A stretch of 64,000 nucleotides of DNA, from UHGV virus genome UHGV-0037395. The stretch is one strand, 5' to 3'. The notes under the pieces are model-generated. The model made no database searches. It was not told the origin of the DNA and saw only the letters and a list, made by a program, of their open reading frames with translations. Source of the stretch: a virus. The position numbers and the translations under genes are program-made. Of the stretch, positions 43,413-54,230 are shown in pieces (positions within the stretch are counted from its first letter, which is position 1; each line of letters starts with the position of its first letter).

Positions 43413-43635
43413 ATATTCATAAATTAGGGAACAGCGAGCCGATTACGCTGAGTGCAGAATCCCAACCGGAGCGCATTGAATAGAGTCGGTGGGTTAGTTG
43501 TAAAACTAGTACACAGGGGGCGGCAATCCCGGTTAGTGGCTAGAACGTGTAAAATGAGGCGTCTGAAACCTCTCCCCTAAATTCTTCTCTAATTTATAAA
43601 TAGTGGGGTGTGGAAATCACTTATGTAGTAACACT

Positions 43636-43707
43636 GCCGTCCTAGTATAATTGGTATTATCAAGCCGTAACTGGTGGAAGATGTAGGTTCGAATCCTACG
43701 GTCGGTA
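43636..43707 (+). ncRNA. degenerate tRNA-like element (good T-arm and acceptor, weak D and anticodon arms)
   Basis: GTAGG TTCGAAT CCTAC T-arm. 7-bp acceptor with one U-U pair. No encoded CCA. Confidence 0.35.
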
Positions 43708-44209
43708 AGAACTGGATAACTGATGCTTTTAACGTAAAAGCTTCCGAGGTTAGTTGCGCACTGCCTAAACCACGCGGTAGTTGGTTCCAGACTAACCAAC
43801 CAGTCTGCTGAATAGTTTTATTACGATTTAACTATGTCCAGGCTAAAGAAGAACTTTAGAAGGTATTCTAGGATAGTGAAGTTCTTTCTCCATATCGGAG
43901 TAGTTTTTCAAGCTATCCACAAAGTGGGAAATGCTGACATGAGAGATGTCACTAATGGTGCACAATAGCACAGGTAATTCGCGATAATTCCTGTTGAGTA
44001 GCAGCAAAAGGCGGGAAGTCATGACCCCAAGCCTAACCGAGTCCTCAATATACCGCAGGACATAACCACTAAGTCACCCTGACTTAAACTGGAAAATAAT
44101 AGACGTTACTGTATTTTGTCTTGAAATACTTAATGAGTGAGACTTATGACTCTCCCGGTATCGTCTGTATTTTTAAGAGTTTTTACGAGAGTTCTTAAAA
44201 ATACTTAAA

Positions 44210-44284
44210 CGGGGTGTAGTCTAAGGGAGAGGCAGGAGTCTTCTAAATTCCTTTATGCAGGTTCGAATCCTGTCACCTCGGCCA
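44210..44284 (+). tRNA. tRNA-Arg (anticodon TCT)
   Basis: Hand-folded cloverleaf: 7-bp acceptor, anticodon stem GGAGT/ATTCC, loop CTTCTAA, TTCGAAT T-loop, encoded CCA. Confidence 0.75.
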
Positions 44285-44318
44285 ATTTTATTAACTGTAA
44301 CTAAAACAAAGGAAATAT

Positions 44319-45266
44319 ATGTTTAATACTAAAAATATGAAAGAACTGACTTCTGAGCAGAAAGTAATTCGTACTATTAAACGTTGGGGGATTGGTGCTG
44401 TAGTTGGTTTAGCAGGTTTAATCCTAGCTTTTAATTCATATACTATTGTTTCTGATGGTACGGTTAAAACTCAAACATTCCTGGGTAAAGTAGACCCTAA
44501 TCCAGTATTGCCCGGTTTCCATCTTGTAAACCCATTTGCATCTTTCGATACTTTTAGTACAAAAGATATTGCTGTAAAATTAGATAAACTTCAGGTTCCT
44601 AGTCAGGATAAGTTTAAATCCACTGTTGACCTGACCGTTATGTTGCAGTTTGATGGTTCTAAGGCACCAATTAACCGTATTAATGCAGGTACTCAGGATC
44701 AAGCGTTAGACAAATATGTAACTGAAAAATTACTGTCTACTATTCGTGAGTTTGGTAAGTCTGTACCTAAAGCACAAGATTTGTTTGATGCTAAAATTCA
44801 GGCTCAATTGCAAACTGCAATTCAACAGGAAGTTGAAGAGTATGCACGCCCATATGGTTACACAGTTAAGCAGGTGTTCCTTCAGGATATTACTTTGCCA
44901 CCAGTAATCATGGAACAGGTACAGAATACCAAAGTTCGTGAAGAGCAAGTTAACGCTGCAAAAGCTGAATTAGCTCGTGTTGAACAGGAAGCACAGCAAA
45001 AAGTTAAACAAGCAGAAGCAGATCGTGAAGCTCGCAACAACCAAGCTATTGCTAACGAACGTGACGCAGATGCTAAGCTGTATGCAGCTAAGAAAGAAGC
45101 TGAAGCTAACGCCGCACTGCAACGTACCATTACTCCTGAGATGATTCGCTGGAAGCAACTGGAAGTTGAAATGATTCGTGCTCAGAAGTATCAAGGTGGT
45201 GTACCGCAGACTGTGGTTGGCACTGGCTATGATGGCCAAATGATTATGGATATGCGTAACAAGTAA
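44319..45266 (+). CDS. SPFH/band-7 (prohibitin/HflC-like) membrane protein
   Basis: N-terminal TM segment, SPFH core, long Ala/Glu/Gln-rich coiled-coil C-terminus. Confidence 0.8.
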   Translation: MFNTKNMKELTSEQKVIRTIKRWGIGAVVGLAGLILAFNSYTIVSDGTVKTQTFLGKVDPNPVLPGFHLVNPFASFDTFSTKDIAVKLDKLQVPSQDKFKSTVDLTVMLQFDGSKAPINRINAGTQDQALDKYVTEKLLSTIREFGKSVPKAQDLFDAKIQAQLQTAIQQEVEEYARPYGYTVKQVFLQDITLPPVIMEQVQNTKVREEQVNAAKAELARVEQEAQQKVKQAEADREARNNQAIANERDADAKLYAAKKEAEANAALQRTITPEMIRWKQLEVEMIRAQKYQGGVPQTVVGTGYDGQMIMDMRNK

Positions 45267-45283
45267 TAGTTACACGTAATCTT

Positions 45284-45322
45284 CGAACCAAGCCCGCGTT
45301 TTCTCCGAGAGCGCGGGCTTTT
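45284..45322 (+). terminator. terminator after the SPFH gene
   Basis: agcccgcg ttttctccgaga gcgcgggct plus TTTTCT. Confidence 0.7.
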
Positions 45323-45342
45323 CTGTATTTAAGGAAAAAGAA

Positions 45343-45385
45343 AAAGCCCCTGCCGAAAGGTAAGGGGCTTTTGTTTTTGGTTTAG
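45343..45385. terminator. bidirectional terminator between convergent transcripts
   Basis: aaaaagcccctgccgaaaggtaaggggcttttgtttttgg, A/T runs on both sides. Confidence 0.7.
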
Positions 45386-45585
45386 AACCATATACTCTTG
45401 TTACAGCAACCACCCATACGGGAGGCCAATCTTGACTGAAAATCTACTCTAGGGGGCAGGATAAGAGTAGGCTTAAAGGCAAACGGATTGAACGCCGGTA
45501 TTTGCGTAAACATTGCTGGAGAGCAACAACGTGCTACAGGCATTGGGCAGCACGAAACAGATTTTCTGCAACACATAATTCCTCC

Positions 45586-46002
45586 TTAGGAGTTATTACC
45601 ACTATTTTGAGCTTTTGCAATTTGGCTTTGGCAGAAGCTATTAAACTTACCCATAAGTGATACGAGCTGTTTCCCATCCTCTGTCTTTGCGAAGTCTTCG
45701 AAAAGGGCTAGTACTGCCTGTCCTTCCGCAGAAACCTGCGGTTGTTGGGTTTGTTGCTGAACTTGCTGCTGCGGCATCTGTTGCTGCATTTGTTGAGGCA
45801 TTTGCGACTGCCCGCTTATTTGCTGCATCATTTGCATAGGACTCACACTTCCAGGGTTTTGCTGGAGTTGTTGCTGCATCTGTTGCGCTTCTGCTAAACG
45901 CTGTTGCAACTGTTGTAAGTAGGGGTTATCCAGACCCGGAATGGGCTGCTGGGAGCCCATACTTTGATTAAGTCCGTTATTTACAAAACCATATTTACTC
46001 AT
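45586..46002 (-). CDS. Gln-rich hypothetical protein (minus-strand island)
   Basis: 138 aa. Low-complexity Q/M/P repeats flanked by ordered N- and C-termini. Confidence 0.45.
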   Translation of the reverse strand: MSKYGFVNNGLNQSMGSQQPIPGLDNPYLQQLQQRLAEAQQMQQQLQQNPGSVSPMQMMQQISGQSQMPQQMQQQMPQQQVQQQTQQPQVSAEGQAVLALFEDFAKTEDGKQLVSLMGKFNSFCQSQIAKAQNSGNNS

Positions 46003-46023
46003 AATGGGCTCCTCCCCTTAATA

Positions 46024-47016
46024 TTAAGCCGGCAGTTTAGCCTGCAGACCAGCCAGAGTCTGAGTGATAGCACCAAGACTTAAAGCGATTTGATTAATTA
46101 CCTGACCGTTAGCACCGCTACCCGCAGCGATTGCTTCACGTAGGCGACATGCATCTAACTCATCCTGGATACGCGCAGTAGTTACACCAGCGATCGCAGT
46201 CTGAAGTTCACAGCAACATTCAGCGATCTGACGTTCCAGAGAGTTCTGGTTAGCACACATCTGAGCCTGAACAGCGGCAAACTGGTTATTAGTTTGTAAA
46301 GTCTGCTGGAAAGCGATCTGTGCAGAATCAAACTTATCTTGTGCACGAGCTATCTGGTTAGCTGCGAAAGATTGATCAATCTGGCGAGAAAGATCGAACT
46401 GACCCTGAATAACGTTGCGGGTTTCCTGGCAGATCTGATTAGACAGATTAGCACCTGTACCATAGATCGTAGTTAGTACAGACTGAGTATCACGACTCTG
46501 GTTTTGGGATGTCTGGCTAAAACCATTGTTAACTGCGCTTAAAACAGCTCCAGTACCCTGGTTAGCTTCTGTACGGGTAGTGTTGATAGCTGCTAGAATA
46601 CTAGCGGTATCTTGGTTCTGAAGTACTGCATCAACTGCGGTACCTTCACCAACTACACCACGTCCACCGAATCCACCGAAACCACCGAATCCGCCTGTTA
46701 ATAGAGCACCGATTAGGATAGCTCCGAATAGCCCCATACCTTCACCACCGAAAGCACCTACGTTTGCTGGGTAACCACCTAGTAGGCCAGGGAAGCCATT
46801 AGTAAATACGTTTACTGGTTCTTGCATTTTATGTTTTCCATATTTATGACAATGTTCATCATCGTCATCTTCATCGTCTTCATCATCGTGTTCACGATGT
46901 TTTTCTTCGTAGGCTCTGACCTTCTCCCACTTTTTCTTATCTGATTCCTCGTGACGGTGCAGTTCTGCCGCAACGCTAGAGACGGTCTCAGGACTCTTAG
47001 CTACTTCTTCTGTCAT
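46024..47016 (-). CDS. hypothetical protein with acidic DE-rich block, glycine-zipper membrane segment and Q/N/A/T-rich C-terminal half
   Basis: Start at MTEEVAK with AGGAGGTG SD. GLFGAILIGALLTGGFGGFGGFGG segment. Confidence 0.5.
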   Translation of the reverse strand: MTEEVAKSPETVSSVAAELHRHEESDKKKWEKVRAYEEKHREHDDEDDEDDDDEHCHKYGKHKMQEPVNVFTNGFPGLLGGYPANVGAFGGEGMGLFGAILIGALLTGGFGGFGGFGGRGVVGEGTAVDAVLQNQDTASILAAINTTRTEANQGTGAVLSAVNNGFSQTSQNQSRDTQSVLTTIYGTGANLSNQICQETRNVIQGQFDLSRQIDQSFAANQIARAQDKFDSAQIAFQQTLQTNNQFAAVQAQMCANQNSLERQIAECCCELQTAIAGVTTARIQDELDACRLREAIAAGSGANGQVINQIALSLGAITQTLAGLQAKLPA

Positions 47017-47078
47017 TTTTTGACACCTCCTAGTATATAGAAAATATGTGTCTCTTTGATCACTCATCCATAACATAT

Positions 47079-47107
47079 ACTTTACACTACCCCAGCGAAA
47101 ATGTCAA
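47079..47107 (-). promoter_or_regulatory. promoter for the minus-strand island (TTGACA / 17 / TAAAGT)
   Basis: Reverse complement ccacTTGACAttttcgctggggtagtgTAAAGTatatg. Confidence 0.5.
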
Positions 47108-47222
47108 GTGGTCTTTAAAAATTGCCCCCGGATTTTTAGTGGGGTCACAAATTTTGGTCCTCACCACTTATCTGCTACCCTTAAGCGCCCTATGATTTTC
47201 CTCTAAAAAGTTAAAAAATTTG

Positions 47223-47251
47223 ATTGCTTGAATGCTAAATTCTCTGTATAA
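47223..47251 (+). promoter_or_regulatory. early promoter (TTGCTT / 17 / TATAAT)
   Basis: gaTTGCTTgaatgctaaattctctgTATAAT. Confidence 0.75.
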
Positions 47252-47282
47252 TATATCTATAAATTTGAGAGAGGAACCAAAT

Positions 47283-47801
47283 ATGAATGTTGATGAGCTA
47301 ACACAGCACCTCTTATCTAGGGGATTTGATGTAGATAAATATCATTGCTGGTTAAGTCCAGAAGGGTGGCTAACAGTCCCGTTGTATGACTTCTCTGGGA
47401 TGTTGAGAGGCTATCAGACTTATAATCCTTCTGCTCCAAAAGGGCATGGTAAGTGCCCCTTTGAAGCTAAATATTTTACCTATTCTACTACACAGTGTGT
47501 ATGGGGACTAGAAACTCTCAATGGAGATGAAAAAGTAGTATTGATTGCTGAATCTGTATTTAAGGCAGTTGCGTTACATAACGCTGGTTATCCAGCCCTG
47601 GCAATGCTGGGTTCTTCTCCAGGAAAAGCCTTATTAAAGCAACTGAAATTATTACCTTTTAAATTGGTAGCTGTCGGGGACAACGATCCTGCGGGTGAAA
47701 AATTTGCTAGAAAATTAAATGGATTTGTTTCTCCTGTAGATGTGGATGAGATGTCTACCGAAAACTTGAAAAATTTTCTTGCTATGAAGCTAAATTTCTA
47801 A
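47283..47801 (+). CDS. TOPRIM-domain protein
   Basis: LIAESVFKAVAL (Glu) and AVGDNDPAG (DxD) TOPRIM motifs. Start at MNVDEL after GAGAGGAACC. Confidence 0.55.
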   Translation: MNVDELTQHLLSRGFDVDKYHCWLSPEGWLTVPLYDFSGMLRGYQTYNPSAPKGHGKCPFEAKYFTYSTTQCVWGLETLNGDEKVVLIAESVFKAVALHNAGYPALAMLGSSPGKALLKQLKLLPFKLVAVGDNDPAGEKFARKLNGFVSPVDVDEMSTENLKNFLAMKLNF

Positions 47802-47807
47802 TATAAT
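47779..47807 (+). promoter_or_regulatory. early promoter (TTGCTA / 17 / TATAAT) embedded in the 3' end of the TOPRIM gene, heading a tRNA pair
   Basis: ttcTTGCTAtgaagctaaatttctaaTATAAT. Confidence 0.65.
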
Positions 47808-47822
47808 ATATCTTATAAATTC

Positions 47823-47911
47823 GGAAGAATAGCATAACGGTATTGCAGCAGATTGCTAATCTGTCGGTTTGAAATATAGCCTTGTGGGTTCGATTCCCAC
47901 TTCTTCCGCCA
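47823..47911 (+). tRNA. tRNA-Ser (anticodon GCT), class II
   Basis: Acceptor GGAAGAA/TTCTTCC, anticodon loop TTGCTAA, long variable arm, GTGGG TTCGATT CCCAC, CCA encoded. Confidence 0.75.
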
Positions 47912-47917
47912 GATTTT

Positions 47918-47995
47918 GGTTCTCAAGCTCATATGGTATGAGCACCCGGCTCATAACCGGAAGGTACGTAGGTTCGAATCCTCGGGGAGCCACCA
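47918..47995 (+). tRNA. tRNA-Met/Ile2-type (anticodon CAT)
   Basis: D-arm GCTC/GAGC, anticodon stem CCCGG/CCGG(A), loop CTCATAA, TTCGAAT loop, CCA. The T-stem pairs poorly, so the score would be modest. Confidence 0.5.
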
Positions 47996-48015
47996 ACTTA
48001 ATTAGGGGATTACAA

Positions 48016-48204
48016 GTGGATCTATATATAGTTTATGTTGTGTTTATCCAAGATAGAGAATACCCGGATGAATATAAAAAAGGATATAGATTAGCCAGAG
48101 CTACCTCTGAAGCCCAAGCTATGGATAAAGTGGCAGATTATATGATTACGGTAGAAAACGTACACTATATCGACTACCTTGAAGCCTCAAAAGTAATTGA
48201 CTAA
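48016..48204 (+). CDS. hypothetical small protein (GTG start)
   Basis: The longer ORF-track call overlaps two tRNAs. The shortest version starts at the GTG after AGGGGA. Confidence 0.3.
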   Translation: MDLYIVYVVFIQDREYPDEYKKGYRLARATSEAQAMDKVADYMITVENVHYIDYLEASKVID

Positions 48205-48213
48205 GGAGACTAT

Positions 48214-48500: not shown

Positions 48501-48577
48501 GGGGGTGTAATCGAATTGGCATAGGTACTGGACTTAAAATTCAGGTTTTGTGGGTTCGAATCCCACCACCCCTACCA
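48501..48577 (+). tRNA. class-I tRNA with anticodon TAA (Leu-decoding by anticodon, but short variable arm)
   Basis: Acceptor GGGGGTG/CACCCCT, anticodon stem CTGGA/TTCAG, loop CTTAAAA, GTGGG TTCGAAT CCCAC, CCA encoded. Confidence 0.55.
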
Positions 48578-48752: not shown

Positions 48753-48959
48753 ATGGCTAATCCTGAAATTACCGCACAACGTTTCATGCTTAAAGGCATG
48801 ATTGCTGAGGCAGGTATGACTCAAGAGGTTGCAGACTTTCATAAGCAATTTCTTGATATTATAACTCTAGCTAAAGAGACAGGAGAAAGAGAACACGGAG
48901 CAGCAATTATGGCTATATCTCTTATTAGCCTAGACTTAGCTGAAGAATCTGGAGTTTAG
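48753..48959 (+). CDS. hypothetical protein
   Basis: 68-aa ORF. Confidence 0.4.
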   Translation: MANPEITAQRFMLKGMIAEAGMTQEVADFHKQFLDIITLAKETGEREHGAAIMAISLISLDLAEESGV

Positions 48960-48990
48960 CTCCTCCAAACAGAATTTTTAAAAATGTACT

Positions 48991-49020
48991 TGCCTTTTGC
49001 TTTAAATTTCTGGTATAATA
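48991..49020 (+). promoter_or_regulatory. early promoter (TTGCCT / 18 / TATAAT)
   Basis: tacTTGCCTtttgctttaaatttctggTATAAT. Confidence 0.65.
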
Positions 49021-49049
49021 GTTATATAAATTGATGAAGGAGTTAACGA

Positions 49050-49325
49050 ATGCAAAATCGTGTTATAGCAACTGGTATTGAAAGTGCAATCTGTAAATCC
49101 TGGGAAGGCTGGGAAGGTGAGATTGAATGGCTTTATTTCTACGATGTAGAACTTCTGCCGGAAGTTAAAGCTAAATGTGTTGAAGCTGGCATGGCTCCAG
49201 ATGCAAAAGCTGATATTGATATTTCAATGTCTGAACTTAAAGGTCGTGTAATTACTGTTAGTGATGAGGGCGAAGAAGTTTTCGAACTTCCATTCTCCTT
49301 AACTGTCGCTCCTAAGTTCGACTAA
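49050..49325 (+). CDS. hypothetical protein
   Basis: 91-aa ORF. SD AAGGAG. Confidence 0.45.
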   Translation: MQNRVIATGIESAICKSWEGWEGEIEWLYFYDVELLPEVKAKCVEAGMAPDAKADIDISMSELKGRVITVSDEGEEVFELPFSLTVAPKFD

Positions 49326-49361
49326 CTAATACAGCACTGAGCAAGTTCTTTAAAATTTGAC

Positions 49362-49390
49362 TTGCTCAGTGCCATAAAACTTGATATAAT
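49362..49390 (+). promoter_or_regulatory. early promoter (TTGCTC / 17 / TATAAT) heading a tRNA cluster
   Basis: tttgacTTGCTCagtgccataaaacttgaTATAAT. Confidence 0.7.
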
Positions 49391-49453
49391 AGTTATCTAA
49401 TTTGGAAACATATCTAAAAGTGTTTAAACTAGTATTTGAATACTTTTAAATAT

Positions 49454-49544
49454 GTTGGATTAGTATCGTAGAGGTAGCGAAGCAGACTGTAAATCTGCCG
49501 ACTCGGAAGGGTCTCGGGTGGTTCGACTCCATCATCCAACACCA
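49454..49544 (+). tRNA. tRNA-Tyr (anticodon GTA), class II
   Basis: Perfect acceptor GTTGGAT/ATCCAAC, loop CTGTAAA, long variable arm, CCA encoded. Confidence 0.75.
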
Positions 49545-49551
49545 AATTTAA

Positions 49552-49628
49552 GTCCTGTTAGACAAACTGGTAAAGTCACTACCCTTTCAAGGTAGGATTT
49601 GCGGGTTCGATCCCCGCACAGGACGCCA
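49552..49628 (+). tRNA. tRNA-Glu (anticodon TTC)
   Basis: Acceptor GTCCTGT/ACAGGAC, anticodon stem CTACC/GGTAG, loop CTTTCAA, GCGGG TTCGATC CCCGC, CCA. Confidence 0.75.
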
Positions 49629-49636
49629 ATTTCTGC

Positions 49637-49713
49637 ATTCCTAGAGTGTTACTGGACAGCATGTCGGTCTCCAAAACCGTACGGTCTAGGTTCGAGTCCT
49701 AGTAGGTTTGCCA
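49637..49713 (+). tRNA. possible tRNA-Trp (anticodon CCA) with weak acceptor and D stems
   Basis: Perfect T-arm CTAGG TTCGAGT CCTAG, anticodon loop CTCCAAA, CCA end. The acceptor has two U-U pairs. Confidence 0.4.
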
Positions 49714-49719
49714 AAATTT

Positions 49720-49794
49720 GCACCTTTAGCTGAGATGGATTAGCGCTTGCCTGAAGAGCTTGAGAGGTTCGTTCGATACGAACAGGGTGCACCA
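49720..49794 (+). tRNA. tRNA-Phe (anticodon GAA) with mismatched anticodon stem
   Basis: Acceptor GCACCTT/AGGGTGC, D-stem GCTG/TAGC, loop CTGAAGA, GTTCG TTCGATA CGAAC, CCA. Confidence 0.55.
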
Positions 49795-49796
49795 AA

Positions 49797-50084
49797 TTGA
49801 GGGAGCTGCTGATGCATCCTGAAAACTTCTTTATTTACTGCGCGGATAAGTCGCTGAAACGTAGAATTAACAAAGTCTATCATTATCGTGCTAGTCAACA
49901 GCCTTATGTATACGCTTTTGACGGTGATCACATCCCATTAGAACAACTATCTTGTGATTACATGATATTGAAGAACTTTGACGAGACAAAGATCTCAAGC
50001 GTTCATAATCGACAGAATCCCTTAACGTGGAAATATAAGAAGAAAAAGAAAGGCATCAAATTCTTAAAAAATGTAGTTGCTTAG
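49797..50084 (+). CDS. hypothetical protein
   Basis: 95-aa ORF starting right after the tRNA. Confidence 0.4.
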   Translation: MRELLMHPENFFIYCADKSLKRRINKVYHYRASQQPYVYAFDGDHIPLEQLSCDYMILKNFDETKISSVHNRQNPLTWKYKKKKKGIKFLKNVVA

Positions 50085-50104
50085 TTTCCAAAAGTTCTGT
50101 ATAA
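50076..50104 (+). promoter_or_regulatory. early promoter (TTGCTT / 17 / TATAAT)
   Basis: gtagTTGCTTagtttccaaaagttctgTATAAT. Confidence 0.7.
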
Positions 50105-50133
50105 TAATTACATAAATTGAACTGGAGAAGCAA

Positions 50134-50325
50134 ATGAAACGATTAGTTAGATTTAAGTGTTGTGGTTCTGAACATATTTTCACACATCTTCGTGAATTTA
50201 AAATGTGTGATTGTGGTAAATCAGGCTATGACTCAGGAGATGGGTTCTACATCCGTACTCTAGGGAACTTCAATGATCTAGAATTTGAAGATCTCGAAAA
50301 ACAATATAAACCGACCGTTGGCTGA
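50134..50325 (+). CDS. small Cys-rich protein (zinc-binding)
   Basis: CCGSEH...CDCG motif. Its last 14 nt overlap the tRNA-Cys 5' end. Confidence 0.4.
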   Translation: MKRLVRFKCCGSEHIFTHLREFKMCDCGKSGYDSGDGFYIRTLGNFNDLEFEDLEKQYKPTVG

Positions 50326-50387
50326 ATGGCTTAGGCGAAGGATTGCAAATCCTTTTTATGTGAGTTCAAATCTCATGCGGTCGTCCA
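50312..50387 (+). tRNA. tRNA-Cys (anticodon GCA)
   Basis: Acceptor CGACCGT/GCGGTCG, perfect anticodon stem AAGGA/TCCTT, loop TTGCAAA, U73 discriminator, CCA. Confidence 0.75.
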
Positions 50388-50388
50388 A

Positions 50389-50529
50389 TTTGCTGAAAGA
50401 ATTGTTAAATCAATTCAGGCACGCGTAGGAACACTGTCTCCGTAATTGAAAGATGAGGCACGGTTTGGAGAGGTATGCCGCTACACGCTACGGTGCTAAC
50501 TCCGTCTAGGTGAAAATCCTAGTCAGCAA
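50389..50529 (+). ncRNA. ~140-nt tRNA-like RNA: T-arm and CCA-less acceptor helix closed by a perfect 7-bp long-range stem
   Basis: TTGCTGA (50389-95) pairs perfectly with TCAGCAA (50522-28). Internal CTAGG TGAAAAT CCTAG hairpin. Confidence 0.3.
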
Positions 50530-50539
50530 TACAAATTCA

Positions 50540-50622
50540 GGGTCGTTAGCCAAGCGGTTTGGCGGTGGACTGTTAATCCATGTCGAAAGACAACGTAGGT
50601 TCGAATCCTACACGGCCCGCCA
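50540..50622 (+). tRNA. class-II-length tRNA, anticodon probably GTT (unusual for a long-arm tRNA)
   Basis: Acceptor GGGTCGT/ACGGCCC, D-stem GCCA/TGGC, stem GTGGA/TCCAT with loop CTGTTAA, 13-nt variable arm, CCA. Confidence 0.5.
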
Positions 50623-50724
50623 AATTCTGTGTAGAGTTAAGTAAACCGGTAGCCAACCAGCTATCATTGCTGACATCGAATTCAGCCACAGATACCATTT
50701 TCATTAATAACTGAGGAAACAAGC

Positions 50725-50910
50725 ATGTCCAAGAATGTAATTGCGCAGCTAGAAGTTCATCGTGATAGCACTCTCAACAATATTGAAGTTGAGAAGAAAT
50801 ACATCGAAGAACTTAAACATGATATACTAGTAAGTCTCAATCGTCTTAATGTACGAAAAGAGTTTCTTAAAGAACTTAATGCAGCTATTGAAAAACTCAA
50901 AGCTGAATAA
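50725..50910 (+). CDS. hypothetical coiled-coil protein
   Basis: 61-aa ORF. Confidence 0.4.
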   Translation: MSKNVIAQLEVHRDSTLNNIEVEKKYIEELKHDILVSLNRLNVRKEFLKELNAAIEKLKAE

Positions 50911-50919
50911 ATGAATTAT

Positions 50920-50996
50920 GCGACCGGGGCTGGCTTGGTAATGGTACTCCCCTGTCACGGGAGGGAATGTGGGTTCAAATCCCATCGGTCGCGCCA
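50920..50996 (+). tRNA. tRNA-Asp (anticodon GTC)
   Basis: Perfect acceptor GCGACCG/CGGTCGC, stem CTCCC/GGGAG, loop CTGTCAC, CCA. Confidence 0.75.
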
Positions 50997-51072
50997 ATTT
51001 TTGCAGGACGCTGGTATAGATAACCACCGCGTGGGAAGTATCTATATTTAGAGCACTGCAAAGCATAATAAT

Positions 51073-51148
51073 ACATCCATAGCTCAATGGTTAGAGCTAC
51101 CGCCTCTTAAGCGGAGGGTTCTAGGTTCAAGTCCTAGTGGGTGTACCA
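51073..51148 (+). tRNA. tRNA-Lys-like (anticodon CTT)
   Basis: Acceptor ACATCCA/TGGGTGT, D-arm GCTC AATGGTTAG AGC, loop CTCTTAA, CTAGG TTCAAGT CCTAG, CCA. Confidence 0.6.
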
Positions 51149-51149
51149 A

Positions 51150-51600
51150 ATTTAAAGAGTAAAGGCTACAGTAGGTGCACCCTTACGGACTGCTACACCG
51201 GACTCTTTAAACAAAATTTCAGTGCAGAACACGGAGCTAGCAATTCGGAAGTGCTGACTCATGATAAGCTGCCTATGTACTTGCAAAGCGGTCGTGTCCA
51301 AGACTCGGACTCTTGCACTGAAAACAATCAAACATTCTAGCGTGGTTGATGGGGAAACCAGCTTGGCTAGGGCAGAAGCTCGTTCGATTCGAGTGAAAGA
51401 ATGGTTCTCGTAAGTCCGCACAAGTGATAGCAGGTTCGAGTCCTGTCTAGAATGATACTATAAAGTTTACTTATTGAGTAGGTTCCGATAGATCGGCGGG
51501 TCTATTCTGGCAGTTAAGAGAGGTCTCGCAAACTTCTTTGTCAGCCGTGGGGTTGGTAGCCTCCAGGTGGCCTACACAATAAGTAAATTTATTAAAAATT
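51150..51600 (+). ncRNA. non-coding stretch with long-range helices and several degenerate tRNA-like minihelices
   Basis: Long-range inverted repeats AAAGAGT/ACTCTTT (51155-51210) and CAGTGCAG/CTTGCACTG (51215-51320). Three CCA-less T-arm-like hairpins: GCTCG TTCGATT CGAGT, GCAGG TTCGAGT CCTGT and TGG GTTGGTA GCC. Two overlapping ORF calls on opposite strands here are judged spurious. Confidence 0.35.
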
Positions 51601-51603
51601 CAT

Positions 51604-51632
51604 TTGCTATTTCGCTTAATTCTCGGTATAAT
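51604..51632 (+). promoter_or_regulatory. early promoter (TTGCTA / 17 / TATAAT)
   Basis: catTTGCTAtttcgcttaattctcggTATAAT. Confidence 0.75.
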
Positions 51633-51664
51633 ATATCTTATAAAGTGTTGAGAAGGAAAGCAAA

Positions 51665-51862
51665 ATGAAAAAAGTTTTACTGCTGTCTGTATTCCTACTT
51701 ACTGGTTGTTTTAAACTTGACTCAACCATTAATAAAGAGTATGAATTTGCTAAAAATTTCTGTGGCGGAGAGAGTAATATAAAGAATTTCTACATATATA
51801 GTACAATTCCTAGTACCGTTTATTGTGTAGACGGACGAATTATTAATATTCCTCCACAATAA
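51665..51862 (+). CDS. small lipoprotein (signal peptide plus LTGC lipobox)
   Basis: MKKVLLLSVFLLTGC. 65 aa. Confidence 0.5.
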   Translation: MKKVLLLSVFLLTGCFKLDSTINKEYEFAKNFCGGESNIKNFYIYSTIPSTVYCVDGRIINIPPQ

Positions 51863-51872
51863 AAGAATTAAC

Positions 51873-51948
51873 AGTGCGTAGCGCAGTTGGTAGCGTGGGA
51901 GCCTTGGATGCTTCGGGTCGCAGGTTCGAGTCCTGCCGCACTGACCAA
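51873..51948 (+). tRNA. tRNA-Pro (anticodon TGG)
   Basis: Acceptor CAGTGCG/CGCACTG, D-arm GCGC AGTTGGTA GCGT, stem GGAGC/GCTTC, loop CTTGGAT, CCA. Confidence 0.75.
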
Positions 51949-51954
51949 ACAATT

Positions 51955-52032
51955 GCGGGTTAGATCTCTGGTAGAGATCGCTAGTCTCATAAGCTAGAAA
52001 GAGGTAGGTTCGATTCCTGCACCCGCTTCCAT
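51955..52032 (+). ncRNA. aberrant tRNA-like gene (6-bp D-hairpin, 9-nt anticodon loop TCTCATAAG, U-U at acceptor 1-72)
   Basis: T-arm GTAGG TTCGATT CCTGC and a CCA end are present, but the anticodon arm cannot be folded canonically. Confidence 0.35.
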
Positions 52033-52051
52033 TTTAATAGAGGATTTCGAA

Positions 52052-52219
52052 ATGAAAGTATTTCGATTAGTAGTAAGTGACAAACGTTTAGGTAAGAATA
52101 CCTCAAAATCCTTACTTGCTCATTATGGAAAAGATGAGAAAGAAGTAATGGTAGAATTTAATACTAATCACCCTTACTTGAAAGTTCACTCTATTAAAGA
52201 AGTATATAATGGTTACTAA
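52052..52219 (+). CDS. small hypothetical protein (55 aa)
   Basis: ATG after GGATTTCGAA, between two tRNA-type genes. Below the ORF-track cutoff. Confidence 0.3.
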   Translation: MKVFRLVVSDKRLGKNTSKSLLAHYGKDEKEVMVEFNTNHPYLKVHSIKEVYNGY

Positions 52220-52220
52220 T

Positions 52221-52299
52221 AGATCGCTAGCTCAATAGGTTTAGTAGCATCCGACTTTTAATCGGAAGGTTCTGGGTTCGAGTCCCAGGCGATCTACCA
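52221..52299 (+). tRNA. tRNA-Lys (anticodon TTT)
   Basis: Perfect acceptor AGATCGC/GCGATCT, stem TCCGA/TCGGA, loop CTTTTAA, CTGGG TTCGAGT CCCAG, CCA. Confidence 0.75.
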
Positions 52300-52317
52300 A
52301 TTTCAAGAAAAACGCAG

Positions 52318-52346
52318 TTGCTTGATGCTTAATTTCTTGTTATAAT
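52318..52346 (+). promoter_or_regulatory. early promoter (TTGCTT / 17 / TATAAT)
   Basis: cagTTGCTTgatgcttaatttcttgtTATAAT. Confidence 0.75.
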
Positions 52347-52391
52347 ATTTATATAAATTGATGAGGAGAAATCCTCATCATATTTCACTAA

Positions 52392-52563
52392 GGTATTAGC
52401 TCGACCTAGGACTGGCTGCCAAAAAGCACGATCCCTACGATTCGGGAGAAGTTCTAGATTGGTCCACTAGATTCAGCGGCAACTGAATAGTGTATCGGGT
52501 TTGCGAGATTACGCAGTTCCTTCCGCTCGAAGCGAAGGTGCTGTAGTTACGCCGAGCTAATAG
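52392..52563 (+). ncRNA. ~170-nt structured non-coding RNA closed by an 8-bp long-range stem
   Basis: TTAGCTCG (52396-52403) pairs with CGAGCTAA (52551-52558). Internal hairpins include TCTAG...CTAGA and CCTTCCGC TCGAA GCGAAGG. Sits between a promoter and tRNA-Ala. Confidence 0.4.
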
Positions 52564-52584
52564 CCTTAGTAAACTAAAGAATTT

Positions 52585-52659
52585 GGGCGAATAGTGTCAG
52601 TGGGAGCACACCAGACTTGCAATCTGGTAGGGAGGGTTCGAGTCCCTCTTTGTCCACCA
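52585..52659 (+). tRNA. tRNA-Ala (anticodon TGC)
   Basis: Acceptor GGGCGAA/TTTGTCC with G3-U70, stem CCAGA/TCTGG, loop CTTGCAA, GAGGG TTCGAGT CCCTC, CCA. Confidence 0.75.
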
Positions 52660-52677
52660 AATTAAAGGGTATGTAGT

Positions 52678-53178
52678 ATGAAGGTAGCTAAAAATGGGAG
52701 AAAAGATAACTTAAATGAGTTAGAAATATTCCTCCACAATAACAAACTAGATGTAACCCCTAGTAATTACATGCAAATAGCTCTATGGTATAATGGGTAT
52801 ATAGTTAGAAAGGCCAATCCTAGTAAGGATAAGAAGTCAAATACATATCAAAAGAGACTAGAGCATAGCTATCAAAGATCCCTAAGAGTAGTACAGCTTT
52901 ATTGTTATATCAATAATATAAATAATAAGCTGGGATATATTTATATAATATCTAACCCAGCTTTTCCAGGCTGGTTTAAAGTAGGGGCAGCCAAAGATGC
53001 TGAAACTAGATTAAATACCTATCAAACATATTCCCCTTTTCGAGACTATGTATTAGAGTATTATAAACTAGTAGATAATTATGAACTCAAAGAAAAAGAA
53101 ATCCTAAGTTCTTTTTCATCTAGAAATAATGAGTGGGTTCATGCTCCACTTGAAGAAATAATTGCTTGCGTGGCGTAA
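52678..53178 (+). CDS. T5orf172-domain (GIY-YIG-like) protein
   Basis: GYIYIISNP...GWFKVGAAKDAETRLNTYQTYSP matches the T5orf172/MUG113 domain pattern. Its 3' end overlaps the tRNA-Leu 5' end. Confidence 0.6.
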   Translation: MKVAKNGRKDNLNELEIFLHNNKLDVTPSNYMQIALWYNGYIVRKANPSKDKKSNTYQKRLEHSYQRSLRVVQLYCYINNINNKLGYIYIISNPAFPGWFKVGAAKDAETRLNTYQTYSPFRDYVLEYYKLVDNYELKEKEILSSFSSRNNEWVHAPLEEIIACVA

Positions 53179-53246
53179 TTGGTAGACGCGCGATCCTTAG
53201 GAGTTCGTGTTAATTCGTGTGGGTTCGAGTCCCTCCGCAAGCACCA
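53164..53246 (+). tRNA. tRNA-Leu (anticodon TAG), class II
   Basis: Perfect acceptor GCTTGCG/CGCAAGC, D-arm GCGT AATTGGTAG ACGC, loop CTTAGGA, 13-nt variable arm, CCA. Confidence 0.7.
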
Positions 53247-53340
53247 AATTTGATGGTCATAGTAAATTAAACCTACTATCTCGGTTGAGCTGTTTTAATG
53301 GGTTCGAATCCCAGCGAGGCGTAACTGCCTGGTGTGATAG
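53247..53340 (+). ncRNA. tRNA-like minihelix (T-arm TGGG TTCGAAT CCCA flanked by a 4-bp CTCG/CGAG stem) without D or anticodon arms
   Basis: Direct reading of the sequence. No CCA. The ORF call over it is judged spurious. Confidence 0.3.
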
Positions 53341-53358
53341 AGGCATCATCTTATTATT

Positions 53359-53449
53359 GGAAGAGCAAATCGAATTGGCGACGAAAACCGCTTGGAAAGT
53401 GGCTGACTGGTAAAACGGCTTGAGAGTTCAAATCTCTCCTCTTCCGCCA
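53359..53449 (+). tRNA. tRNA-Ser (anticodon GGA), class II
   Basis: Perfect acceptor GGAAGAG/CTCTTCC, 3-bp D-stem, loop TTGGAAA, long variable arm, GAGAG TTCAAAT CTCTC, CCA. Confidence 0.65.
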
Positions 53450-53461
53450 AACAATTTATAT

Positions 53462-53556
53462 GGTAGGTCAATCCAATGGCTGGCGCTGGACTCCGACTTG
53501 AAATCGGTTGATCGTAGTGATACGGTGTAAGGGTTCGATCCCCTTACCTACCTCCA
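53462..53556 (+). tRNA. tRNA-Ser (anticodon TGA), class II
   Basis: Perfect acceptor GGTAGGT/ACCTACC, stem (T)CCGA/TCGG(T), loop CTTGAAA, long variable arm, AAGGG TTCGATC CCCTT, CCA. Confidence 0.65.
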
Positions 53557-53720
53557 AATCTTGAAGTATGCCGGAATCGGTAGACGGGGCTGCCTAAAAG
53601 GTTTACAGGGAACATCCACTCCCCGCAACATACCTCATAAAGCGGCTGAGATAAATGGTCTATCTCGTGAAGGTTCAAGTCCTTCTGCTTCTTGATACAT
53701 CTATGGCTCAAAGTGTAACG
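53557..53720 (+). ncRNA. non-coding stretch with a D-arm-like and a T-arm-like hairpin but no complete tRNA
   Basis: AGAT AAATGGTCT ATCT hairpin and GAAGG TTCAAGT CCTTC hairpin. No acceptor complement and no CCA. Confidence 0.3.
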
Positions 53721-53999: not shown

Positions 54000-54024
54000 A
54001 ATTAACTTAAATAGGAAATAAAAT

Positions 54025-54219: not shown

Positions 54220-54230
54220 AATAAAATTAT

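What the first reader, a model, noticed from the sequence alone, without database searches (positions are those of the whole stretch)
43430..53720. tRNA region contains many degenerate tRNA-like minihelices and atypical tRNAs alongside canonical ones
About 24 cloverleaf tRNAs are present. Hand-folding also reveals at least seven partial tRNA-like elements (43636-43707, 50389-50529, 51954-52032, 53247-53340, 53557-53720, plus hairpins in 51150-51600): a TTCGA(A/G)T T-arm next to an acceptor-like helix, but no credible D and anticodon arms and often no CCA. Several apparently functional tRNAs have U-U pairs in the acceptor or anticodon stem (49637-49713, 49720-49794, 54313-54387). One class-I-sized tRNA carries a TAA anticodon (48501-48577) and one long-arm tRNA reads GTT (50540-50622). 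These could be decoys for tRNA-targeting nucleases, processing signals, primer-like RNAs or decaying duplicates.
Basis: seen in the sequence. Interest (0 to 1): 0.6.

Follow-up and report, generated by a model that had tools for sequence, protein, structure and literature searches.

The report
T5-phage tRNA-like stable RNAs rediscovered
The window is the tRNA gene cluster of a T5-like phage, and most of the odd "partial tRNAs" are the tRNA-like stable RNAs already annotated in phages T5 and BF23, which are conserved, structured RNAs of still unknown function, not decaying tRNA copies.

Summary
The window is from a T5-like phage (Tequintavirus; 95-97% identical to many records). The region holds 26 tRNA genes, not about 24. 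The others are real non-decoding RNAs. Eight are orthologues (85-100% identity) of misc_RNAs annotated in T5 (AY543070) and BF23 (NC_042564): RNAX, RNA3, RNA2, RNAIV, RNA2H, RNA1, RNAI and RNAIII, described there as "(tRNA-like) stable RNA with unknown functions". Two, 50390-50530 and 53247-53354, are not annotated in those records. Their anticodon loop is replaced by a conserved 41-63-nt insert. Covariation is strong: 13-15 compensatory pairs each, against 0-5 in slid controls. Homologues occur in other Demerecviridae genera, and also in Vequintavirinae and Straboviridae tRNA clusters, so they are not decaying duplicates. All eight T5-annotated RNAs are missing from at least one viable T5 deletion mutant. 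The U·U pairs, the short tRNA-Leu(UAA) and the long-arm tRNA-Asn are confirmed. The kind is already known. The function is unresolved, and tRNA mimicry is inferred only.

The parts
43573..44209 (+). RNAX homologue: the long 5' leader between the P16-17-type promoter (43384-43412) and tRNA-Arg
   Evidence: blastn to T5 RNAX gives 91.7% and 98.6% identity in two pieces. It is annotated 'stable RNA with unknown functions' in AY543070 and NC_042564.
43636..43707 (+). tRNA-like element X inside RNAX. It has acceptor, D and T arms, a degenerate anticodon arm and no CCA.
   Evidence: RF00005 scores it 35.5 bits, with the anticodon arm skipped in the alignment. Default ARAGORN does not find it. It is flagged as a pseudo-tRNA in AY587007. 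The Sugarland homologue has a different, longer hairpin in place of the anticodon arm.
50390..50530 (+). E50392: a 140-nt tRNA-shaped RNA with a 7-bp acceptor-like stem, a D-like hairpin, a 10-bp stem carrying two hairpins and a pseudoknot, and a T-like arm with loop UGAAAAU. It has no CCA. It is not annotated in T5 or BF23, which carry a T5orf172 ORF at this position.
   Evidence: 39 pairs are 97.9% paired and 15 are compensatory, against 0-2 in slid controls. It occurs in 220 phage records. It is 88% identical in Klebsiella phage Sugarland and 74% in the Vequintavirinae phage KP12. There is no Rfam hit. ARAGORN with introns allowed models it as a tRNA with a 63-nt insert.
50625..50697 (+). 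RNA3: a 73-nt tRNA-sized RNA with a 6-bp acceptor stem plus U1·U72, no D stem, a 6-bp stem with a 6-nt loop, a T-like arm with an 8-nt loop, and an encoded A73-CCA end
   Evidence: It is 100% identical to T5 RNA3, annotated 'putative tRNA-like RNA'. Sequence diversity is too low for a covariation test.
51153..51210 (+). Long imperfect hairpin directly after tRNA-Lys(CUU)
   Evidence: Fold. A 51-nt stretch is 100% identical in Salmonella phage rutana and Pectobacterium phage DU_PP_V. The hairpin and tRNA-Lys(CUU) align together as one block to DU_PP_V.
51333..51457 (+). RNA2: a class-I tRNA-shaped RNA with an 8-bp acceptor stem, a D arm with GG, a 5-bp 'anticodon' stem, a ~60-nt insert that contains a second T-arm hairpin (51378-51394), and a canonical T arm (51430-51446)
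   Evidence: 96.7% identical to T5 RNA2, annotated 'tRNA-like stable RNA'. 25 pairs are 95.9% paired and 15 are compensatory. Homologues occur in phiR2-01, DU_PP_V, Sugarland and the T4-like Acinetobacter phage ZZ1.
51476..51578 (+). RNAIV: a stable RNA whose 5' and 3' ends are closed by a terminal stem; it has no T arm
   Evidence: 97% identical to T5 RNAIV. The alifold consensus has 36 pairs, 4 of them compensatory.
52394..52565 (+). RNA2H: a 172-nt stable RNA closed by a 10-bp terminal stem, downstream of a P13b-type promoter
   Evidence: 96.5% identical to T5 RNA2H. 57 pairs, 10 of them compensatory.
53247..53354 (+). E53247: a conserved ~105-nt spacer RNA between tRNA-Leu(UAG) and tRNA-Ser(GGA), with a T-loop hairpin (UGGG-UUCGAAU-CCCA). 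T5 has the HNH endonuclease gene hegC at this position.
   Evidence: Present in BF23, where it is unannotated, and in phiR2-01 and rutana; 78% identical in DU_PP_V, with one compensatory change in the T-like stem. The overall fold is weakly supported. There is no tRNA-model hit.
53355..53449 (+). Atypical tRNA-Ser(GGA): the acceptor stem, G73-CCA, anticodon arm and T arm are intact but the D stem is not canonical
   Evidence: Missed by ARAGORN and RF00005. It scores 19.7 bits with the tRNA-Sec model. It is annotated tRNA-Ser in T5_ev212, flagged pseudo in AY587007, and its T5 counterpart is noted as not convertible into an amber suppressor in AY543070.
53560..53704 (+). RNA1: a class-II (Leu-like) tRNA-shaped RNA. 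It has an acceptor stem with a U·U pair, a D loop GAAUCGGUAGA, a 5-bp 'anticodon' stem, a 48-nt insert ending in the invariant loop GAACAUCCACUC, a variable-arm hairpin and a canonical T arm. It has no CCA.
   Evidence: 85.5% identical to T5 RNA1, annotated 'tRNA-like stable RNA'. 38 pairs are 98.7% paired and 13 are compensatory. Homologues occur in Sugarland and DU_PP_V. ARAGORN with introns allowed models it as a tRNA with a 41-nt insert.
53705..53811 (+). RNAI: a 107-nt stable RNA with a 5-6-bp terminal stem followed by G-CCA
   Evidence: 90.7% identical to T5 RNAI. 22 pairs, 5 of them compensatory.
53816..53921 (+). RNAIII: a 106-nt stable RNA with a 12-bp terminal stem, abutting tRNA-His
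   Evidence: 98.1% identical to T5 RNAIII. Fold. Diversity is too low for a covariation test.
49637..49713 (+). tRNA-Trp(CCA) with tandem U·U pairs at 2:71 and 3:70, plus U27·U43
   Evidence: Cloverleaf. RF00005 scores it 36.3 bits. The U·U pairs are kept in Sugarland and DU_PP_V while pairs 6:67 and 7:66 covary.
49720..49794 (+). tRNA-Phe(GAA) with tandem U·U pairs at 28:42 and 29:41 in the anticodon stem
   Evidence: Cloverleaf. The same stem is found in T5, BF23, phiR2-01 and DU_PP_V; in rutana it is fully paired.
54313..54387 (+). tRNA-Gln(UUG) with U1·U72
48501..48577 (+). tRNA-Leu(UAA), 77 nt, without a long variable arm; it has a Leu-type D loop and A73
   Evidence: In the alignment, T4 tRNA-Leu carries a 10-nt longer variable arm, and BF23 has a 77-nt tRNA-Leu(UAG) annotated as an effective suppressor after an anticodon swap.
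50540..50622 (+). tRNA-Asn(GUU), 83 nt, with a 13-nt variable arm (3-bp stem and GAAA loop)
   Evidence: The long arm is also present in rutana. T5's own tRNA-Asn (78 nt) is a different allele.
   Evidence: ARAGORN; RF00005 at 43.6 bits; T5 annotation 'initiator tRNA fMet'; cloverleaf.

Best explanation
The region is the early-gene tRNA cluster of a T5-like phage. Between its 26 tRNA genes lie about a dozen small non-coding RNAs that are the same as, or belong with, the 'stable RNAs' and 'tRNA-like RNAs' annotated in T5 and BF23.

They sit head to tail with the tRNAs, 0-9 nt apart, behind the same sigma-70 promoters. They are therefore made as parts of the polycistronic tRNA transcripts. Each closes its 5' and 3' ends in a terminal stem. 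Inferred step: they are cut out by the host tRNA-maturation enzymes, with RNase P cutting at the 5' end of each downstream unit, and the terminal stem protects them from exonucleases, which is why they accumulate.

Five of them (X, E50392, RNA3, RNA2, RNA1) keep a tRNA body: an acceptor stem and a T arm, usually with a D arm. None has a 7-nt anticodon loop, so they cannot decode. In RNA1, RNA2 and E50392 a conserved, structured 41-63-nt insert sits exactly where the anticodon loop would be. This is the same design as the engineered 'tRNA scaffold' RNAs.

Most likely (inferred, not shown) the tRNA body gives processing, stability and recognition by tRNA-binding proteins, while the insert carries a specific accessory function in trans. 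On this view they are tRNA mimics that bind, titrate or block host factors acting on tRNAs. They are dispensable on laboratory E. coli.
For: Identity:
- 43400-56000 is 95-97% identical to T5-like phages.
- Eight elements map at 85-100% identity and in the same order onto the misc_RNAs of AY543070 and NC_042564.

Structure under selection:
- E50392: 97.9% of cells paired, 15 compensatory pairs, 0-2 in slid controls.
- RNA1: 98.7% paired, 13 compensatory, 1-5 in slid controls.
- RNA2: 95.9% paired, 15 compensatory, 1-4 in slid controls.
- RNA2H, RNAI and RNAIV have 10, 5 and 4 compensatory pairs.

Conservation:
- Against Sugarlandvirus and Hongcheonvirus, DNA similarity in the region is largely confined to tRNAs, promoters, a few ORFs and these RNAs.
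- E50392 also lies in Vequintavirinae tRNA clusters.
- An RNA2-like element lies in a Straboviridae tRNA cluster.

tRNA body with an insert:
- ARAGORN with introns allowed models E50392, RNA2 and RNA1 as tRNAs with 63-, 48- and 41-nt inserts in the anticodon loop.
- The Rfam tRNA model aligns X only by skipping the anticodon arm.

Arrangement and expression:
- Coordinates come; promoters.
- In T5 the annotated RNA1 3' end abuts the RNAI 5' end.
- The T5 and BF23 depositors call them stable RNAs.

Dispensability: the viable T5 mutants st0, T5Mos and T5-123 between them delete all eight annotated RNAs.
Against:
- The 'stable RNA' status rests on depositor annotation of T5 and BF23. The original papers could not be read here.
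- In the PARIS study, only the T5 fragment carrying tRNA-Lys rescued infection. The other two fragments of the T5-123 deletion, an interval that contains RNA1, RNAI, RNAIII and RNA2H, had no effect, so those RNAs are probably not anti-PARIS. Which fragment held which RNA was not stated.
- No antisense target of the invariant RNA1 loop was found in the window above chance.
- RNA3, RNAIII, E53247 and the spacer at 51217-51323 lack enough sequence diversity for a covariation test.
- Natural loss of E50392 in T5 and BF23 shows that at least that RNA is expendable.
Confidence: 0.55

Rival explanations
1. They act only in cis, as punctuation. On this view they are structured spacers that supply RNase P or RNase E cleavage sites and 3'-end protection, so that the neighbouring tRNAs and small ORF mRNAs of the polycistronic transcripts are released and stabilised. 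The excised RNAs would be inert by-products.
For: - They are arranged head to tail with tRNAs and small ORFs.
- Every element, including those without a T arm (RNAI, RNAIII, RNAIV, RNA2H), closes its ends in a terminal stem.
- They are dispensable in deletion mutants that also lose the flanking genes.
- The SegB paper mentions that processing in the tRNA cluster is thought to limit expression of the T5 homing endonuclease ORFs.
Against: - Punctuation needs only an acceptor/T-arm minihelix. It does not explain invariant insert sequences across genera, such as GAACAUCCACUC in RNA1 or AUGCCGCUACACGCUACGG in E50392.
- It does not explain the covarying internal helices and the pseudoknot.
- It does not explain why the same RNAs sit among different neighbours in other phage families.
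Confidence: 0.25
2. They are decaying tRNA pseudogenes or duplicates with no function, still transcribed only because they lie inside the cluster.
For: - tRNA-like arms sit beside broken anticodon arms.
- The RNAs show presence/absence polymorphism, linked to homing-endonuclease-type ORFs. E50392 is replaced by a T5orf172 ORF in T5 and BF23, and E53247 is replaced by hegC in T5.
- All annotated ones are dispensable.
- Several true tRNAs of the cluster are themselves called pseudo or OTHER by annotation pipelines.
Against: - Compensatory changes keep 96-99% of cells paired.
- Identity between genera is 75-88%, equal to that of real tRNAs, while most neighbouring DNA does not align.
- None is a close copy of a resident tRNA: best alignment scores are 10-18, against 13-38 among true tRNAs.
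- The inserts themselves are conserved and structured.
Confidence: 0.1
3. RNA1, RNA2 and E50392 are intron-containing tRNA genes that are spliced into working tRNAs.
For: ARAGORN with introns allowed returns tRNA models with 41-63-nt inserts in the anticodon loop.
Against: - The residues that would form the anticodon after removal differ between homologues. For RNA1 they are CUAAAAGG, CGAAUAGG, CUAACGAG and CUAAAGGG.
- The inserts are far shorter than group I introns, which by established knowledge are the only self-splicing introns known in bacterial tRNA genes.
- T5 and BF23 annotate the full-length 144- and 125-nt species as the stable RNAs.
- E50392 has a non-canonical T loop and D loop.
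Confidence: 0.03
4. The partial elements are ordinary tRNAs whose arms were missed by hand folding.
For: This is true for 51954-52031, which is tRNA-fMet. It is partly true for 43636-43707, which scores above the Rfam gathering score.
Against: There is no RF00005 hit even at E<=10 for 50390-50530, 51333-51457, 53247-53354 or 53560-53704. The hit at 43636 skips the anticodon arm.
Confidence: 0.02

Closest known systems
Phage T5 and BF23 misc_RNAs RNA1, RNA2 and RNA3 ('tRNA-like') and RNAI, RNAIII, RNAIV, RNA2H and RNAX ('stable RNA with unknown functions'), GenBank AY543070 and NC_042564
   Same: They are orthologous: same order, same flanking tRNAs, 85-100% identity.
   Different: - This phage lacks several T5 ORFs, including T5.063, hegC, T5.067 and T5.069, and it lacks tRNA-Val.
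- It carries tRNA-Lys(CUU) with its hairpin, and E50392, neither of which T5 or BF23 has.
- It also carries E53247, which T5 lacks and which BF23 has but does not annotate.
Phage T4 species 1 and species 2 RNAs (rnaC, rnaD)
   Same: They are small stable RNAs at the end of the T4 tRNA cluster, of unknown function. rnaC (139 nt) folds with a canonical T arm next to an acceptor-like stem that carries U·U mismatches, around a large insert. That is the same architecture as RNA1 and RNA2.
   Different: No sequence homology was detected. The E50392 covariance model does not hit T4.
Engineered tRNA-scaffold RNAs, in which the anticodon arm of a tRNA is replaced by a cargo RNA to obtain stable, correctly processed RNA in E. 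coli (recalled from the literature, not read here)
   Same: The design is the same: an intact acceptor, D and T body with the cargo inserted at the anticodon stem.
   Different: Those are artificial and these are natural. The cargo function here is unknown.
tmRNA (SsrA)
   Same: It has a tRNA-like domain (acceptor stem and T arm) with the anticodon arm replaced by a long helix and pseudoknots. E50392 also has a long helix and a pseudoknot.
   Different: - The phage RNAs are 125-145 nt, against about 360 nt for tmRNA.
- They have no G3·U70 pair.
- They have no tag reading frame.
- RNA1, RNA2 and E50392 have no encoded CCA.
- ARAGORN finds no tmRNA. Rfam gives only 10-11-bit fragments of tmRNA, which cover T loops.
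Bacterial Y-RNA-like tRNA mimics (YrlA)
   Same: They are non-decoding RNAs with a tRNA-like module, also found in some phages (recalled knowledge).
   Different: In YrlA the ends lie in the Ro-binding stem and the tRNA-like module is distal. Here the ends form the acceptor stem. No Rfam Y-RNA or YrlA hit was found. The Pfam scan of ten ORFs around the cluster gave no Ro/Rsr hit, but the rest of the window was not searched.

Membership tests
T5-family stable and tRNA-like RNAs (RNA1, 2, 3, I, III, IV, 2H, X) | Sequence homology to the annotated T5 and BF23 RNAs | tested here: met
   blastn identities are RNA3 100%, RNAIII 98%, RNAIV 97%, RNA2 97%, RNA2H 96.5%, RNAX 92-99%, RNAI 91% and RNA1 85.5%. 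E50392 has no counterpart in T5 or BF23. E53247 has none in T5 and is present but unannotated in BF23.
T5-family stable and tRNA-like RNAs (RNA1, 2, 3, I, III, IV, 2H, X) | Same position in the tRNA cluster, on the tRNA strand, between the same tRNAs and promoters | tested here: met
   The order Ser(UGA)-RNA1-RNAI-RNAIII-His, Asn-RNA3, RNA2-RNAIV-promoter-Pro and promoter-RNA2H-Ala matches AY543070.
T5-family stable and tRNA-like RNAs (RNA1, 2, 3, I, III, IV, 2H, X) | Accumulation as discrete stable RNAs in infected cells | not testable with these tools
   Only the depositors' annotation for T5 and BF23 is available. There are no expression data for this phage.
Canonical tRNA (Rfam RF00005 / ARAGORN) | Score at or above the curated threshold with all four arms aligned | tested here: not met
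   E50392, RNA2, RNA1, E53247 and RNA3 have no RF00005 hit at E<=10. X reaches 35.5 bits, but only with its anticodon arm skipped. By contrast, 51954-52031 meets the criterion (43.6 bits).
Canonical tRNA (Rfam RF00005 / ARAGORN) | A 7-nt anticodon loop with a conserved anticodon | tested here: not met
   In RNA1, RNA2 and E50392 the loop is replaced by 41-63-nt inserts, and the flanking residues vary among homologues. RNA3 has a 6-nt loop. In X the anticodon arm is not alignable to the tRNA model, ARAGORN leaves the anticodon undetermined, and Sugarland has a different hairpin there.
Canonical tRNA (Rfam RF00005 / ARAGORN) | Discriminator base plus CCA 3' end, encoded or added | tested here: inconclusive
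   CCA is encoded only in RNA3 (A-CCA) and RNAI (G-CCA); this is read directly from the sequence. Post-transcriptional CCA addition cannot be tested here.
tmRNA | tRNA-Ala-like acceptor stem with G3·U70 and CCA, plus a tag-peptide reading frame and pseudoknots | tested here: not met
   ARAGORN, which also searches for tmRNA, reports none. Rfam RF00023 gives only 10-11-bit T-loop fragments. Position 3:70 of the acceptor stem is G:C in E50392.
Intron-containing tRNA genes | An insert in the anticodon loop whose removal restores a conserved, functional anticodon loop, plus a known splicing mechanism | tested here: not met
   ARAGORN can model the inserts, but the restored loops are not conserved. 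No group I intron family was hit in Rfam.

The most novel reading that the evidence does not exclude
RNA1, RNA2 and E50392, and by analogy T4 species 1 RNA, may form a widespread class of natural tRNA-scaffold RNAs that has been overlooked. In this class a phage keeps a processable, nuclease-resistant tRNA body and replaces the anticodon loop, which is the cleavage site of most anticodon nucleases, with a conserved structured insert. Such an RNA would be an uncleavable tRNA mimic that traps or blocks host tRNA-targeting defence nucleases or tRNA-handling enzymes. E50392 and RNA2 would then be RNA families shared among tRNA clusters of at least three phage families. Neither is covered by an Rfam family.
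Probability: 0.2. Interest if true: 0.75.

Novelty: already known. Interest (0 to 1): 0.35.

Why it matters
Phage tRNA clusters are now known to counter tRNA-cleaving defence systems: T5 tRNA-Lys counters PARIS and T5 tRNA-Tyr counters retron Eco7. The non-decoding RNAs interleaved with those tRNAs are still annotated with unknown functions in both T5 and T4, and no later functional study turned up in the paper searches.

This analysis does not discover them. It adds three points:
- They are under strong structural selection.
- Three of them share a tRNA-body-plus-insert design.
- Two of them cross phage-family boundaries.

That gives concrete, testable candidates for tRNA mimicry and two RNA families (E50392 and RNA2) that could be curated. 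For the scan itself, the lesson is that this finding is a rediscovery of annotated features, with one ordinary tRNA wrongly included.

Tried and rejected
- The search for related loci with the 65-aa ORF at 51665-51862 returned only 5 viral contigs, so diverse genomes were fetched one at a time instead.
- The invariant E50392 17-mer was scanned against metagenome and genome collections. It gave 56 and 43 loci, but nhmmer showed only 5 metagenome contigs are real, all near-identical to known phages. The rest are at the level expected by chance for a 17-mer.
- A covariance model of E50392 found no paralogues in the window, T5, BF23, T4, ZZ1 or DU_PP_V.
- RNA1, RNA2 and E50392 with their inserts removed, together with X and RNA3, were aligned to the 26 resident tRNAs. 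No close parent was found.
- Aligning T4 rnaC and rnaD with the T5-type RNAs showed no homology.
- Antisense targets of the invariant RNA1 loop in the window were at chance level: 6 matches against 3.9 expected.
- The idea that the stretch after the first T arm of RNA2 is a second acceptor strand was dropped. The motif GAAAGAAUGGUUC is conserved in ZZ1 and Sugarland although their acceptor stems differ.
- Literature searches for a function of the T5 stable RNAs found nothing. The T4 genome review could not be opened.

Full report
**What the window is.** Bases 43400-56000 match 653 phage records. 127 of them cover at least 80% of the query, and the best are 95-97% identical. All the best hits are T5-like phages of Salmonella and E. 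coli (Tequintavirus, Demerecviridae). The region is therefore the early-region tRNA gene cluster of a T5-like phage.

**How many tRNAs.** ARAGORN finds 23 tRNAs and Rfam RF00005 finds 25 hits at or above the gathering score.
- Rfam adds 47918-47992, which is T5 tRNA-Ile2(CAU), and 43636-43707.
- A sub-threshold tRNA-Sec hit at 53462-53552 is tRNA-Ser(UGA). Relaxed ARAGORN finds it and T5_ev212 annotates it.
- 53355-53449 is an atypical tRNA-Ser(GGA). It has an intact acceptor stem, G73-CCA, anticodon arm and T arm, but no canonical D stem. Both programs miss it, and it scores 19.7 bits with the Sec model.
- The total is 26 tRNA genes.

**The key comparison.** The T5 reference record AY543070 and the BF23 tRNA-region record NC_042564 annotate misc_RNA features between the tRNAs.
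- RNA1, RNA2 and RNA3 are described as 'tRNA-like (stable) RNA with unknown functions'.
- RNAI, RNAIII, RNAIV, RNA2H and RNAX are described as 'stable RNA with unknown functions'.

blastn places them in the window as follows (alignment):

| T5 RNA | Window coordinates | Identity |
|---|---|---|
| RNAX | 43573-44209 | 92-99% |
| RNA3 | 50625-50697 | 100% |
| RNA2 | 51333-51457 | 96.7% |
| RNAIV | 51476-51578 | 97% |
| RNA2H | 52394-52565 | 96.5% |
| RNA1 | 53560-53704 | 85.5% |
| RNAI | 53705-53811 | 90.7% |
| RNAIII | 53816-53921 | 98% |

- 43636-43707 is the pseudo-tRNA inside RNAX. It is flagged pseudo in AY587007. Rfam aligns its acceptor, D and T arms but skips the anticodon arm.
- 53557-53720 is RNA1.
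- The 'hairpins in 51150-51600' are a conserved hairpin, a spacer, RNA2 and RNAIV.
- 51954-52032 is simply tRNA-fMet.
- 50389-50529 and 53247-53340 are real elements that T5 lacks. T5 and BF23 carry a T5orf172-domain ORF at the first site (T5.069 in T5). T5 carries the HNH endonuclease gene hegC at the second site. BF23 has the 53247 element but leaves it unannotated.

**Anatomy.** MFE folds show that every one of these RNAs closes its 5' and 3' ends in a terminal stem.

Three of them are tRNA-shaped with a large insert at the anticodon loop:
- *RNA1* has a 7-bp acceptor stem with U·U and a D region identical to a tRNA-Leu D loop (GAAUCGGUAGA). It then has a 5-bp 'anticodon' stem and a 48-nt insert of three helices capped by the invariant loop GAACAUCCACUC. 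A variable-arm hairpin and a canonical T arm complete it.
- *RNA2* has an 8-bp acceptor stem, a D arm with GG and a 5-bp stem. Its ~60-nt insert contains a second, covarying T-arm hairpin. A 4-nt variable loop and a canonical T arm follow.
- *E50392 (50390-50530)* has a 7-bp acceptor stem and a D-like hairpin. A 10-bp stem bears two hairpins, and a pseudoknot joins one hairpin loop to the 'variable' region. Its T-like arm has the loop UGAAAAU.

ARAGORN with introns allowed returns exactly these three as tRNAs with 41-, 48- and 63-nt inserts. The residues that would form an anticodon are not conserved, so these are not decoding tRNAs.

RNA3 is a 73-nt RNA with an acceptor stem, no D stem, a 6-nt-loop hairpin, a T-like arm and an encoded A-CCA end. 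RNAI ends in G-CCA.

**Are they structured RNAs under selection?** Homologues were collected from T5, BF23, T5_ev212, IMG/VR and metagenome contigs, SpoonbillGilly, rutana, phiR2-01, Sugarland, DU_PP_V, KP12, P8734 and ZZ1.

| RNA | Pairs tested | Cells paired | Compensatory pairs | Same in slid controls |
|---|---|---|---|---|
| E50392 | 39 | 97.9% | 15 | 0-2 |
| RNA1 | 38 | 98.7% | 13 | 1-5 |
| RNA2 | 25 | 95.9% | 15 | 1-4 |

- The slid controls for E50392 had 30-46% of cells paired.
- RNA2H, RNAI and RNAIV show 10, 5 and 4 compensatory pairs.
- RNA3, RNAIII and the spacer at 51217-51323 are too invariant to test.
- E53247 has one compensatory change in its T-like stem, but its overall fold is weak.

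**Conservation.**
- Against Sugarlandvirus and Hongcheonvirus, DNA similarity across 43-56.5 kb is largely limited to tRNAs, promoters, a few ORFs and these RNAs. The RNAs involved are X, E50392, RNA2, RNA1, E53247 and the hairpin at 51153-51210.
- RNA1-region matches occur in 500 phage records, RNA2 in 484 and E50392 in 220.
- E50392 also lies inside the tRNA arrays of Vequintavirinae-type Klebsiella phages.
- An RNA2-like element with both T arms and the motif GAAAGAAUGGUUC.CGUAAG lies in the tRNA region of the T4-like Acinetobacter phage ZZ1.
- None of the five tRNA-like RNAs is a close copy of a resident tRNA.
- Together this argues against decaying duplicates.

**Biogenesis and function.**
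- The elements are 0-9 nt from the neighbouring tRNAs and share their promoters. Strong sigma-70 matches lie at 43384, 47779, 48990 and 51604. T5-homologous promoters sit upstream of RNA2H and after tRNA-Thr.
- In T5 the annotated 3' end of RNA1 abuts the 5' end of RNAI. Release by the tRNA-processing machinery is therefore the natural inference, but it is not shown here.
- All eight annotated RNAs are dispensable in the laboratory. The st0 deletion removes RNA3 and RNAX. T5Mos (Δ30661-38625) removes RNA2H, RNAIV, RNA2 and RNA3. T5-123 (Δ29191-32442) removes RNAIII, RNAI, RNA1 and RNA2H.
- In that PARIS study only the fragment with tRNA-Lys rescued infection.
- The design matches engineered tRNA scaffolds: a tRNA body for processing, stability and protein recognition, with an insert as cargo. 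It resembles tmRNA only superficially.
- I therefore favour trans-acting tRNA mimics. My confidence in that functional step is about 0.2-0.25, and a purely cis punctuation role is the main rival.

**Atypical tRNAs.**
- ARAGORN cloverleaves confirm tandem U·U pairs in tRNA-Trp (2:71, 3:70, and also 27:43) and tRNA-Phe (28:42, 29:41). They also confirm U1·U72 in tRNA-Gln(UUG).
- The Trp U·U pairs persist in Sugarland and DU_PP_V while the neighbouring pairs covary. They are therefore a selected feature, not damage.
- The 77-nt tRNA-Leu(UAA) lacks the long variable arm. BF23 has a 77-nt tRNA-Leu(UAG) that its depositors report as an effective suppressor after an anticodon swap.
- The 83-nt tRNA-Asn has a genuine extra arm, shared with rutana.

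**Comparison with what is known, and verdict.**
- The closest known entities are the T5 and BF23 RNAs themselves, which are orthologues. Next is T4 species 1 RNA (rnaC). It sits in the T4 tRNA cluster and folds with a T arm next to an acceptor-like stem containing U·U pairs, around a large insert. No sequence homology to it was detected.
- No Rfam family covers any of these RNAs.
- The finding is essentially a rediscovery of annotated, functionally unexplained features. It contains one misclassified tRNA and a partly wrong description of the arms.
- What this analysis adds is the covariation support, the shared tRNA-body-plus-insert design and the cross-family spread of E50392 and RNA2.

Noticed in passing
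window 52678-53178 (+): A 166-aa ORF with a T5orf172/MUG113 domain (GIY-YIG-related) sits between tRNA-Ala and tRNA-Leu(UAG). T5 and BF23 carry a paralogous T5orf172 ORF (T5.069 / trn 2.8) at a different site, where it replaces E50392 and comes with a different tRNA-Asn allele. Mobile nuclease-type ORFs seem to drive cassette swaps in the cluster.
   Followed up: partly
window 42932-43375 (+): A 147-aa ORF just upstream of the RNAX promoter has a sub-threshold YqeY/GatB-tail domain hit (25.2 bits against a cut-off of 27). Its phiR2-01 homologue is annotated 'tRNA amidotransferase'. It could be a phage tRNA-binding protein and a candidate partner for the tRNA-like RNAs.
   Followed up: no
L029 (Acinetobacter phage ZZ1) 2968-3092 and 3102-3332: The RNA2-like element of this T4-like phage lies about 10 nt upstream of a 76-aa ORF with an RF-1 (peptidyl-tRNA hydrolase/GGQ-type) domain (Pfam 40.5 bits). 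This may hint at a link to ribosome or peptidyl-tRNA biology, or it may be coincidence.
   Followed up: partly
window 51070-51206: tRNA-Lys(CUU) and the following hairpin align as one block to Pectobacterium phage DU_PP_V (91% over 138 nt). The hairpin core of 51 nt is 100% identical in DU_PP_V and in rutana. T5 has ORF T5.067 at this position. This looks like a recently exchanged cassette.
   Followed up: partly
window 54025-54219 (+): A 64-aa Cys-rich ORF (CxxC...CxxC) has 95% nucleotide identity over 128 nt with Klebsiella phage Sugarland, far above the rest of the region. It has no Pfam hit.
   Followed up: no
window 53355-53449 (+): tRNA-Ser(GGA) is missed by ARAGORN and by the Rfam tRNA model because its D stem is non-canonical. 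It is 91% conserved in DU_PP_V, where it is unannotated. The T5 counterpart is flagged pseudo in one record and noted as not convertible into a suppressor in another.
   Followed up: partly
window 52300-52320, compared with T5 L004:6082-6155: tRNA-Val(UAC), which follows tRNA-Lys(UUU) in T5 and BF23, is absent here and in T5_ev212. tRNA-Gly(GCC), which sits between RNA2 and RNAIV in BF23, rutana and SpoonbillGilly, is also absent.
   Followed up: partly
window 45290-45320: A strong 14-bp GC-rich hairpin with T runs lies at the convergence of the + and - strand genes. It corresponds to the 'efficient bidirectional rho-independent terminator' of T5, next to a mapped T5 nick site.
   Followed up: no
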